Assembly: GCA_951406725.2 (NCBI GenBank)
Contig: OX597842.1
Coordinates: 21,638,001 to 21,702,000, forward strand
Direction: 5' to 3'
From: Octopus vulgaris
Taxonomy: Eukaryota
DNA length: 64,000 nt
Part shown: in pieces, positions 48,167-56,096 of the stretch
Position numbering within the stretch: position 1 is the stretch's first letter
Layout: every line of letters starts with the position of its first letter
Notes under the pieces: generated by a model
Told to the model about the DNA's origin: nothing
What the model saw: the letters and a program-made list of their open reading frames with translations, nothing else
Databases searched by the model: none
Position numbers and translations under genes: made by a program

Positions 48167-49785
48167 CTCCTGCCCAAGACGAAACATTAAAGGACTATAT
48201 ATTTATCCACACATTTCAGGAATAAATATACATATTACTATATACGCACTTTTCACAATATACCAAACAGTGATGTAGAACACAAAGACCTATTTAAACG
48301 CACATCGTCACACACAAACACACTCAACTCACATACATATATATAGAGAGAGAGATAATGTGAGTTAGAGAAGGGCAAAAGAAGGTTAAGAAAGAAAGAT
48401 GGAAAGATATTAAATTTGAGGAAATATATACTCAGGAATATATTATGAACAAGACTGGTTCAACTTACAAAGTTTTTAAGCTCGGAAGATTTGCAAACGA
48501 TCCTTTTTCAATTTTCTCGATTGTATTATTGGATAGATCTCTGAAAGATAATTCATGAACAAAACAACATAGAAGTGATTAGTCATATATTTCAAATATT
48601 ATGTCCAATGAATTAGCTGCTGAAATAGAAGAAAAATAGGTAGAAGTGAGACAATTTGGTGAAGACGATTATGAAAATGATAAGTGAAGATTATGAAGAT
48701 AATATTTATGTATGGCATTGTGTTAAGTGATGATGAAATCGATAATTATTATGATGAGGGCATTTGATGGTGATAGATTTGGTAGTGATGAATTTGTTTC
48801 GGTCTGAGGGCATTGCATCTGTGGTTTAAGATTATGACTGATAAGGATGATGATGATGGTGATGATGACGATGATCATGATGACGATAATGGTGACAACC
48901 ACTACGAGGACGCAGACCATGATTATGATGACAATATTTACTGATGGTGCTCTTAATATTTGGAATGATGAAGAGGAGGATGACGCTGATATACAAAGTT
49001 GAAACTATAACAAAAGAGAAGGATGAGAATAGGAATAAAAATAACGACGAGCTGTTATTGATAAATGAGATAAAAAGGGTAAAGAAACTAAACTAGAACT
49101 GGAGACATGTATCTATCTATCTATCTCTCAATCTATCTATCTACCTATCTATCTATCTGTCTATTTATCTATCTATCTATCCATCTATCTGTCTATCCAT
49201 CCATCTATCACTTTATCAATATATCTATCAATCGGCAGACAGATACGTAAACACATACACACATATACCAATATATATATATATATATATGTATATATTT
49301 GTGTGTGTCTATATATCTATATGTGTGTGTGTGTATGTAACACGTTTATACATGTACTTTTTTCAGTAATTTGACAATGTCCATGCTAGAGCCTTTATTC
49401 GAACCAAACGAGATCAGCATTTATTTGTTGAAAGACTAGCACTTATTCTCTCGGTGTCCTTTGCCGAAACACTAAGTTACAGGGTGTGCAACACCAACAT
49501 TGGTTATTAGGTGATCTTCAGGGAACACAAATATATACTTAAATCTATCTATATTTGTATGTCTGTGCTTGTGCTAGCACTAGCACTAACCACTTTCCAA
49601 CACCCAGACCACAAAACATCATCTACACACCCATACACAATCGTCCACACACCCACACCCTACAGACGCTCACAGCTACGCACGCATACATCCACACATC
49701 ATAGTCATTAGCCACTATCAACACACACACACACACACACACACACACTTACACATTCTTACATACACATCCGCACGCACACCAT

Positions 49786-49973
49786 CTATCTATCTATCCA
49801 TTTATCTATCTATCTGTCCATCTATCCATCCATCCATCCATCTATCCATCCATCTATCTATCTATCTATCTATCTATCTATCTATCTATCTATCTATCTA
49901 TCTATCTATCTATCTATCTATCTATCTATCTATCTATCTAATCTATCTATCTATCTATCTATCTATCTATCTA
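49786..49973. repeat. (TATC)n tract, absent at this position in other units
   Basis: Other units read CCGCACGCACACCATTGTTTTGGG without interruption (e.g. 1382-1405). Confidence 0.9.
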
Positions 49974-52900: not shown

Positions 52901-54430
52901 GTTTACAGGAACCGGATTAGCGAGTTAATTAAGAGGGCGCTGACGGGAGCCGTCGTTAACAACCGCTGTTGGTACGCCCTGAAAATGGCAATAAAATCGG
53001 AATCAATTAGGTTTAGCAAGGAATTAGCGATAGATCGAAATAGAGTAGAGGGAGACTTGGTTAAGAAACTAGAAGAGGCACTTACCACTGGCAGCGCAAC
53101 CAACGTGCTGGCTGCGAGGATGGCCCTCGACCAACACCTCAACGCCAAGCACGAAGGTTGCGTCGTCAGAGCTAAAATGCGTGCCTTAAGGAACGAAGGG
53201 ATCGAAGCTGCGCGAGAGGCCCGGGTAGCGGATGCGCAGCGTGGCAACAGAACCACCATTCGGTCTCTAATAGATCAACAGGGATGCAGTTTACTCGAAC
53301 CCGAAAGGATGTGTGAGGCCTTTCAACAGCACTTTGCTCGACTGTTTGGTGCGAGTGGTGGGTCGGAACGCGGGATGGATTTCAGGGCCTACCTGACCGA
53401 CCTGCCGCGGCTCACGGCAAGAGAAGCGGAGTGTTGTGAAAGTCCCATCACAGCCGCTGACGTGCGGGATGCGATGGCGGGCCGCGCGAGGGATAAGTCG
53501 CCTGGATTGGATGGTTAACCCTACGTGCTGTATTGTCAAATGCCAGACTTGCTTGGCGACCTCTTAGCACCAGTCTACTGCAACTGGCAACAAAACGGGA
53601 GAATCCCCGGTTTCGTGAGCCGAGGTGCAGTGACGTTGCTGAAGAAGGACCCAAACAAGGGGAATTTTATAGATAATTTCAGGCCCATCACTCTGCTCAA
53701 CGCAGATTTGAAAATTTTGGCCAAAGTAATAGCCGAGAGGTTGGCGCTTGTCATTGGTAAACTGGTCGACAGGGCGCAAACATGCGCCGTGCCGGGCAGA
53801 ACCGTACATGATAACCTCCATCTGATGCGCTACATTATGGACAGGGTAGTTAAGGATCCTGGCATGGGTGGGGCGGTGATAAATTTGGATCGGTCTAAAG
53901 CCTTCGATAGGGTCGACCATCGGTACTTGGCGGCCGTCCTCAGGGCGGCTGGCTTCGGTCCCGTCTTCCGTGGTTGGATCGCTGCCTTGTATAGCGGCAT
54001 CCGATCGGTGATTCGGGTGAACGGTCACCTGTCGAAACCGTTTGACATCACGCGTTCGGTCCGTCAGGGGTGACCCCTGTCGGCGCTTCTGTATGTATTG
54101 ACTCGAGCCGCTACTGCGGAAGCTGGAAACACTGAGGGGCATCCCACGGAAACTGGGTTGCGGGACGAGCGTGTCGGCATATGCGGACGATGTCACCGTC
54201 ATAGTGTCGAGCGACAAACACATCCAGATGATAGGCGACACTAAGAAAATACGAAACGGTGAGGGGAGCGAAAATTAACCCAGAAAAGTCAGTGGGGTTG
54301 CTACTCGGCACCTGGAGAAGCAAGCCCATGCCGTCCGACTGCGGCTCAGTTGTGGGACGCTGGATGGACGGACCGGTTAAATTGCTCGGGGTCTGGTTCA
54401 GTCCGGACCTCCAAATGGATAATAACTGGG
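49974..54430 (+). mobile_element. Tx1 LINE copy 3, 5'-complete but 3'-truncated just after the RT core
   Basis: ORF1 from 50169, EN ORF 52128-52892, RT pieces 52985-54073, YADD at 54180-54191; homology ends at MDNNWD (54430-54433). Confidence 0.92.
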
Positions 54431-56096
54431 ACGCACACCATTGTTTTGGGATCTCCAGTTGTTTATTATCTCGCCGACTCTCTATTTCTCCCATCAAGCT
54501 ATGCTTTTCCTAAACAGTTGCCATGCTTGATCCCTAAATCGACAAGATTTTTAATCCCTTTTTGTTCATGGTCTCCTTTCTCTTTCTGTTGAGGAGCATA
54601 GGCTCGAAAGTAAAGGAATTTCTCAATTTCCCGAGCGTTGAATTTAACACCTGTTCTCGACTGTTATTTTACCGTAAATTTAATCTACCGACACGCAAAC
54701 ACACACAAACACACACACACACACACACACACACACACACACACACACACACATCTATATATTAAAAGGATGTGTGTTATAATACTATTCCACAACCATA
54801 GGAACAATGCAACATACCTGTATCATCAGCTACCCCACGGTTACCATTATGGTTTCGACACCTGGTCACTACCCTTTAATCCGGCGGTGTCAACAGCACT
54901 AAAATATGTGTTGTTTGGGAACAAAAAAATTTTAAAAACCACAAATTTCAACCACATTTACCCTATGTATAACCGTATCAATAAATAATTCAATAAATAA
55001 ATTACAACTACTAAATACGTAACTAAGCAGCGTGAAATCTTTTAAATCATACAATTTTCAGTCCGTTCACACGTGTCTCGAGCTCTGCTGCGGAATTTCT
55101 ATTTTTGGATATATTTGGGATACTTAAGTGTGCACATGACTTAGTGTTTACTTCTTCCATAGGTACAAGTAAGTATCTCATTTATTTTCTTATCGTATTT
55201 ATCGCTAATGTCGAGAAAATTCTAAATGAATTAACTCAGAAATGGGATCGATCCGATAATAACGAAATTCTTTTAGAAATATCTATGAACTTGCTTTCGA
55301 GACGCGTGTTTATAGTGATAAATTATATGGTTATTGACGATTAAGTCTATTTCGGCATATTTGGCATTGAATTCTCTTTCTTTGGCCCTTGTTTATAAGT
55401 TGTATATAAATATATATATATATATATATATATATATATATATATATTTCATGCTTGTGTGTCCATTTTTCTTGCTGACCTTAAGTCATTTTATCGCTAC
55501 CTCTTTATTTATTTATAAATAAATTTAGATATTTTCCCTCCGTTGAAATGCAAATCTCTTTATAACACGGAATTCCAACTATAAATTTTGTTGCATTTAA
55601 ACCGTTCTTTAAATGCACTTGGTTTAAACTAATGATAGAGTATTATGATTTCGTTAGTTTTAATATTAACATTGATATTCATGAAATCTACGTCACATGT
55701 AATATTTTAATTGAACTTGATTAAAATTTTGAATGTTGCAGCATAAATTCCAATTTCTGTTTGTTTAACCGTGAAAAGAGCCATAAAGAATCAATTAGAA
55801 TTAGGAAGGTCATAACTTTTCCATATTAACAAGAAGAAATATATGTGAATTTATATATAAGTAAATGAAGAGATAGAGAAAAGATTTAAGCTCAGGAACA
55901 CATACACATACACACAAATATGAATTATATACATATAAATTTATATATATTTCTACACAGAAACACACTCTAGAGAGAATAAAGGGGCTACCCAATATGC
56001 TGCAAGTGGCGCTGCCACCGACGAGATTGGATCTTGTCCGCTTCTCCAACGGTAAACACTAGGATTGTTCTCATTTTTGCATGCTTTAATGACAAT

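What the first reader, a model, noticed from the sequence alone, without database searches (positions are those of the whole stretch)
49775..54441. 3'-truncated LINE with a (TATC)n leader, flanked by an 11-bp duplication: possible internally primed retrotransposition that seeds a new microsatellite
Seen: ACGCACACCAT occurs at 49775-49785 and again at 54431-54441, but only once at the matching site in other units. Between the two lie ~190 bp of (TATC)n and a 5'-complete Tx1 that stops mid-ORF2. The first 3 nt of the right repeat (ACG) equal the next element bases (CTGGGACG|AG at ~15121-15130), and the left repeat ends in CCAT, a motif of the TATC/CATC tract. Known: L1/Alu internal priming yields TSD-flanked 3'-truncated copies, and 5' transduction carries upstream flank. 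Inference: an RNA starting in upstream TATC was primed internally and planted a new TATC array at a non-TATC site. A DNA-templated repair insertion is the alternative.
Basis: partly seen in the sequence, partly recalled or inferred. Interest (0 to 1): 0.72.

Follow-up and report, generated by a model that had tools for sequence, protein, structure and literature searches.

The report
Rearranged TATC-targeting LINE in repeat array

Summary
An 11-bp repeat (49775-85, 54431-41) flanks about 190 bp of (TATC)n plus a 5'-complete Tx1-like LINE cut at about residue 770 of ORF2. Both junctions recur in a 1%-diverged paralogue 350 kb away. The family targets (TATC)n, which this scan noted before on other DNA (e1-9514738). 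Variants inherited 3-10 nt upstream of GGACG suggest its RNA starts a little inside TATC.

The structure is unique. None of 24 other 3'-broken copies and none of 95 complete copies has a credible duplication outside its TATC tracts, and no donor was found.

Three results favour a local DNA origin over internal priming. The tract is CCAT-rich like this array's own TATC tracts (10 of 18) and unlike the family's upstream tracts elsewhere (1 of 129). Two other units carry repair scars at the same site. 3'-broken copies are common.

Against a local origin: the tract matches no single array tract in order, the copy belongs to another subfamily than the array's other three, and a flanking duplication is typical of LINE insertion.

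Odds: DNA rearrangement 0.5, internal priming 0.33. All ingredients are known.

The parts
49775..49785 (+). left copy of the 11-bp repeat (site X of the array unit); last 2-4 nt overlap the TATC tract
49786..49974 (+). (TATC)n tract: about 70 bp CCAT-rich distal part, then about 115 bp nearly pure; the last ~10 nt are probably element-encoded
49975..54433 (+). 5'-complete Tx1-like LINE: 5' UTR, broken ORF1, APE endonuclease and RT pieces of ORF2; ends at 4468 of 5889
54431..54441 (+). right copy of the 11-bp repeat; ACG shared with the element
49110..49233 (+). the unit's own TATC tract (T), the family's normal target, empty here
10332..16736 (+). copy c1 of another subfamily, with both ends, inserted in T; T-like tracts on both sides (element 10673-16501)
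26025..31617 (+). copy c2, sister of c1, in T (element 26260 to about 31405)
1..812 (+). 3' end and downstream tract of copy c0, whose upstream tract carries the same interruptions as c1 and c2

Best explanation
The block is the 5' part of a (TATC)n-targeting Tx1-like LINE with its upstream tract, and it was likely first inserted normally in one of this array's own TATC tracts and then likely placed at site X by a DNA-level rearrangement inside the array. Most simply, a break or stalled fork at X was repaired by copying 4.6 kb from a neighbouring unit, entering by a 2-4 nt CCAT homology and returning by ACG 11 bp upstream. Two deletions that both end at X, in adjacent units, give the same sequence and need no lost donor. 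Shown: junctions, empty sites, TATC targeting, tract make-up, scars at X. Inferred: the earlier insertion in T, the repair step, and loss of the donor unit.
For: The tract has 7 CCATC units in 3 runs. Three or more runs occur in 10 of 18 array tracts (about 5 of 9 lineages, my grouping by eye) but in 1 of 129 upstream tracts of the family elsewhere (Fisher p 2e-6 on that grouping). It ends CATC CATC TATC before a pure run, the same layout as c0-c2, which sit in T. Two of 12 other units carry lesions at X: a 7-nt replacement in L234 and a 19-to-6 nt replacement in L235; 2 of about 8 lesions in 25 of 900 bp gives p about 0.02 (lesions counted by eye, site chosen after the fact). 24 of 109 classified copies fail to reach the 3' end, about 4 of them mis-classed, and none has a duplication, so DNA-level loss of 3' ends is common. 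X does not resemble TATC. The only case found genome-wide lies in an array that hosts this family and has kilobase deletions.
Against: The tract aligns in order with no single array tract: best score 2, against a background 99th percentile of 2.1. The copy is 5.7-6.2% from c1 and c2 and falls in another subfamily, so a second insertion into T is needed, and no such unit is in the assembly. Repair patches usually lack a duplication, whereas LINE-made insertions have one (PMC5110952, passages). The flank-lineage test was uninformative. The array tracts are not independent, and CCAT runs could have grown after insertion.
Confidence: 0.5

Rival explanations
1. One reading: an RNA that began at least 160-190 nt upstream in TATC was primed internally at ACG from a staggered break at X, reverse-transcribed to its 5' end and joined by CCAT, planting a new TATC array.
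For: The 4-11 bp duplication has homologies at the edges that target-primed reverse transcription predicts. Variants are inherited at -3 (22 of 106), -7 (20 of 106), -8 (5 of 105) and -10 (4 of 104), against 0.9% per base further upstream. The copy is about 2.2-2.5% from the majority, like its siblings, and has no sister among 107 copies, as expected of a fresh RNA copy. c0-c2 have about 90 nt of extra TATC between the end of T and the element. L129 and L222 end internally straight into TATC. Precedents: off-target R1A copies carry 7-28 bp of upstream 28S inside 3-14 bp duplications (PMC2718515, section 14); internal priming can occur at staggered breaks (PMC5402677, passages).
Against: No convincing inheritance beyond -10. 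0 of 24 broken and 0 credible of 95 complete copies repeat the structure. It needs a donor with a rare CCAT-rich tract (1 of 129) and a chance landing about 550 bp behind a tract of just that kind. The 3' homology is only 3 nt (5.4% by chance). No donor was found.
Confidence: 0.33
2. Hybrid: normal priming at T of this unit with an unusually long duplication reaching X (about 680 bp), so that a TATC leader was joined to CACCAT; a later deletion then removed the LINE's 3' end back to X.
For: The family appears to make long duplications: about 100 bp in L228, about 70 bp in L196, the whole of T in c1/c2; 15 of 76 informative copies exceed the control's 95th percentile. X looks break-prone.
Against: It needs a duplication several times longer than any seen and a deletion ending within 11 bp of the earlier join; it does not explain the CCAT-rich tract.
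Confidence: 0.1
3. Assembly artefact.
For: The region is highly repetitive; no listed public contig bridged the 3' junction.
Against: Two loci with their own substitutions carry both junctions.
Confidence: 0.03

Closest known systems
Microsatellite-targeting Tx1-clade LINEs: Kibi (TC)n, Koshi (TTC)n, crocodilian Tx1 on (TTCC)n/(TTTC)n (PMC4494074, passages)
   Same: L1-type ORF2 with APE endonuclease and RT; inserts in a simple repeat, in phase at both ends
   Different: Target is (TATC)n; no tree with named Tx1 families was built; long duplications seen in a few copies
Drosophila melanogaster-type R1A copies outside 28S (PMC2718515, passages and section 14)
   Same: Off-target copy of a site-specific element showing upstream target sequence inside a short duplication
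   Different: Those carry 7-28 bp, were chosen for intact 3' ends and keep 4-9 bp identity to the target; here 160-190 bp, 3' end missing, no likeness to the target
Tailless / internally primed L1 and Alu insertions (PMC5322556 and PMC5402677, passages)
   Same: 5'-complete, 3'-truncated, flanked by a duplication, short homology at the priming site
   Different: Those mostly prime at A-rich sites with a non-specific L1; here a single case with signs of local origin
FoSTeS/MMBIR templated insertions and class 2 TSIPs (PMC3638133 and PMC5110952, passages)
   Same: 2-10 bp homology at both joins, no tail, no endonuclease site
   Different: Class 2 TSIPs lack a duplication and are thought to be RNA-derived patches; the insert here is 4.6 kb

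Membership tests
Tx1 clade (L1 superfamily) | ORF2 with N-terminal APE endonuclease, RT and C-terminal zinc motif | tested here: met
   PF03372 and PF00078 in this copy; PF13966 in c2 at 27.4 bits, just under its 27.5 cut-off; L1 ORF2p best in PDB, E 2e-59 against 1e-21 for R2
Tx1 clade (L1 superfamily) | RT phylogeny groups with named Tx1 families | tested here: inconclusive
   The only named hit among 26 is 'Transposon TX1 uncharacterized 149 kDa protein', 33% identity; no tree with references built
Tx1 clade (L1 superfamily) | ORF1 with a CCHC zinc knuckle | tested here: met
   CYNC..PEHLIAKC in c1; the His is lost in this copy; motif label recalled, no Pfam hit
Microsatellite-specific LINE | Flanks are one repeat type in more than 20% of copies (criterion in PMC4494074) | tested here: met
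   98 of 108 have 20 nt or more in-phase TATC upstream (76 of the 116 loci were picked by a pattern holding 5 nt of that flank); 74 of 81 have a tract of 20 nt or more downstream
Internally primed (tailless) retrotransposition | 5'-complete, 3'-truncated, 8-35 bp duplication | tested here: met
   11 bp if both homologies are counted, 4 bp if not
Internally primed (tailless) retrotransposition | Primer-RNA pairing beyond chance | tested here: inconclusive
   3 nt, 5.4% by chance
Internally primed (tailless) retrotransposition | RNA intermediate that includes the upstream tract | not tested
   No RNA data obtained; only indirect inheritance to -10
5' transduction | Upstream sequence traced to a donor locus | tested here: not met
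   Exact pattern only in this copy and its paralogue; with 2 mismatches one more hit, not next to an element, against 5 control hits
DNA-templated insertion (FoSTeS/MMBIR) | Microhomology at both joins | tested here: met
   3 nt and 2-4 nt; shared with the RNA model
DNA-templated insertion (FoSTeS/MMBIR) | Identifiable nearby DNA template | tested here: not met
   c1 and c2 are 5.7-6.2% away; no sister; only the tract's composition points to the array

The most novel reading that the evidence does not exclude
This TATC-targeting LINE is transcribed with a long (100-200 nt) TATC leader that normally vanishes by annealing into its target. The copy at 49775 is a rare off-target, internally primed product that exposes the leader and shows a LINE founding a microsatellite, its own future target, with its 5' end.
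Probability: 0.3. Interest if true: 0.5.

Novelty: new member of a known kind. Interest (0 to 1): 0.3.

Why it matters
If the RNA route is right, it is a natural read-out of the 5' leader of a microsatellite-targeting LINE and an instance of microsatellite transduction, which a 2013 review called conceivable but unreported for L1 (PMC3812793, passage). It would still be a single event, one in roughly 130 copies examined. If the DNA route is right, it is a warning: inside tandem arrays a short flanking repeat can be made without retrotransposition. The by-products may matter more than the finding: inheritance of the last ~10 nt of TATC and apparent 70-200 bp duplications are testable clues to how second-strand synthesis works in a microsatellite target.

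Tried and rejected
Local rearrangement of c1 or c2: rejected, different subfamily.

Donor search: interrupted-tract patterns, a 1-kb DNA search (40 of 326 candidates scored), trees of 19 and 34 copies, rare-variant sharing in 107 copies and two private-variant patterns found only the paralogue. Sampling was not exhaustive: 284 copies hold the anchor near the break.

Truncation hotspot: L038 breaks 7 nt from this copy, but it is one junction in 6 duplicated loci, without a duplication; with 3' loss this common I judge it compatible with chance. The ninth hit, L079, is a distant family.

Leader length from 5'-truncated copies: only 4 of 14 start in TATC, too few; 28 of the 29 loci that processed before stopping were too long to show a 5' end.

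Flank lineage test: uninformative.

Public runs: no RNA holder listed; no bridging contig among those shown. Neither is evidence either way.

Array unit: no Rfam family or tRNA; by eye the ORFs look like repeat fragments (not scanned against Pfam, except one ORF without a hit).

The 3'-tract figures came from a faulty pattern and were replaced. Supplements of the papers were not read, and Repbase could not be searched; either may list this family.

Full report
Setting. The window lies on G000:C29 of a 2.8-Gb genome, probably an octopus (inferred; earlier scan notes say so). It is a tandem array of roughly 10-kb units, about 86-94% alike, broken by kilobase deletions, with no Rfam family or tRNA. 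Each unit has a TATC tract (T) and, about 550 bp downstream, site X.

Observation. All details check out. The 11-mer flanks the insert and is single at four other units. ACG belongs to both the element and the right repeat. The left repeat overlaps the tract by 2-4 nt, so the duplication is 4-11 bp. The element stops at 4468 of 5889, about residue 770 of ORF2. A paralogue with both junctions lies inverted 350 kb away. Its LINE part differs by 1.0%, its flanks mostly by 2-7% per 500-bp bin, so the two descend from one event.

The family. ORF2 has APE and RT domains. An intact ORF2 from L201 is closest to L1 ORF2p among solved structures, and its only named homologue is a Tx1 protein. It targets (TATC)n: 98 of 108 5' ends have 20 nt or more of in-phase TATC (median 89), and 74 of 81 3' ends are followed by a tract, with no poly(A). 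Two families share the first 450 bp. Variants at -3, -7, -8 and -10 recur across unlinked loci far above the 0.9% background; the -7 variant occurs at 26 places on 11 contigs. So the copied unit likely begins about 10 nt or more inside TATC. Pure leaders would leave no trace, so longer leaders are neither shown nor excluded. Interruptions shared by both tracts suggest long duplications in some copies (15 of 76 above the control's 95th percentile; L228 about 100 bp).

Is the structure repeated? No. Of 116 other loci, 85 were complete, 24 did not reach the 3' end (about 4 mis-classed) and 7 were unclassified; none of the 24 had a duplication around tract plus element, while the same script recovered it for this copy. 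Among 80 complete copies with readable flanks there were 5 candidates, all simple-repeat strings, against 3 of 148 in mismatched controls; 0 of 15 more. A second break 7 nt away is one event in 6 duplicated loci, without a duplication.

Donor. None was found. The copy is 5.7-6.2% from c1 and c2 and 3.6-5% from its own subfamily. Of 50 rare variants shared with the paralogue, the most any of the other 107 copies shares is 5. Two private patterns and the tract pattern hit only the pair.

What shifted my reading. Before these tests I gave RNA priming about 55%. First, the tract's make-up: 3 CCAT runs, seen in 10 of 18 array tracts but in 1 of 129 upstream tracts elsewhere and 1 of 179 flanking tracts overall. 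Its layout, an interrupted part ending CATC CATC TATC and then a pure run, copies that of c0-c2 in T. It does not match any one T in order, so this is composition, not proven descent. Second, X carries lesions in 2 of 12 other units (p about 0.02). Third, 3' ends are often lost by rearrangement in this family. In an array, X is present in every unit, so a short flanking repeat can arise from template switching or from two deletions.

Mechanism. Best (0.5): a copy inserted normally in T was moved to X by DNA-level repair using 2-4 nt homologies, or exposed there by two deletions. Rival (0.33): internal priming of an RNA with a long TATC leader; the duplication, the missing sister and the -10 inheritance support it. 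Hybrid (0.1): normal priming at T with a very long duplication, then a deletion. Junction geometry alone cannot separate these, because each needs 3' ends pairing at CCAT and ACG (inference). The odds are my judgement, not a computed posterior.

Comparison with the literature. Seen as passages only: PMC4494074, PMC5322556, PMC13282606, PMC5402677, PMC3812793, PMC3638133, PMC5110952; passages and section 14 of PMC2718515. Microsatellite-targeting Tx1s, tailless copies, off-target R1A copies carrying upstream target, and templated insertions are all described. Searches listed no title or abstract start on a TATC-targeting Tx1 or on a microsatellite carried at a LINE's 5' end, and the octopus repeat paper has no 'TATC' or 'GATA' in its main text. 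The library is partial, and supplements and Repbase were not seen. This scan noted the GATA-targeting family before (e1-9514738); look-ups near this place and by words found nothing on this structure.

Verdict. A real, singular rearranged copy whose mechanism stays open between known processes; interest 0.3.

Noticed in passing
window 10332-16736, 26025-31617, 1-812 and L240: c0-c2 are flanked on both sides by near-whole copies of the unit's TATC tract (shared TAAC, TAGC, CATA interruptions), plus about 90 nt of extra TATC before the 5' end: a very long duplication with a leader, or recombination between units.
   Followed up: partly
L228 (C4:6.60 Mb), L196 (C1:11.44 Mb): Apparent target duplications of about 100 and 70 bp inside the microsatellite. 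In L228 the 5' join uses about 10 nt shared with a related element just downstream.
   Followed up: partly
L129, L130, L134, L222: Copies that end internally and run straight into TATC, with short homology or a 20-nt fold-back (L134): internal priming at the normal target, or homology-guided deletion.
   Followed up: partly
L089, L109, L124, L153 and others: A second family of about 6.2 kb shares the first 450 bp at about 90% but has an unrelated ORF1 region and a 78-79% alike ORF2; the -3 and -7 variants occur in both families, suggesting 5'-end swapping.
   Followed up: no
L196, L199, L201, L217, L218, L224, L225: A subfamily, mostly with a TTGAC GGATGTG 5' end, with open 1149-aa ORF2s, so probably recently active.
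   Followed up: no
G000:C29:21.32-21.34 Mb against window 44315-59910: The LINE part of the paralogue differs by 1.0% but the flanks mostly by 2-7%: conversion of the insert between clusters, or of the flanks with other units.
   Followed up: no
L080, L083-L087 (C28, C30, C31): One LINE break joined to what looks like a DNA-transposase fragment (label recalled, untested), spread to 6 loci by duplication.
   Followed up: partly
L131 and L132 (C16:10.50 Mb): Two 5' halves face each other, each continuing into the other's reverse complement: an inversion or fold-back.
   Followed up: no
window 20816-21244: An inverted (GATA)n tract with TA/TG repeats, expanded relative to other units.
   Followed up: no
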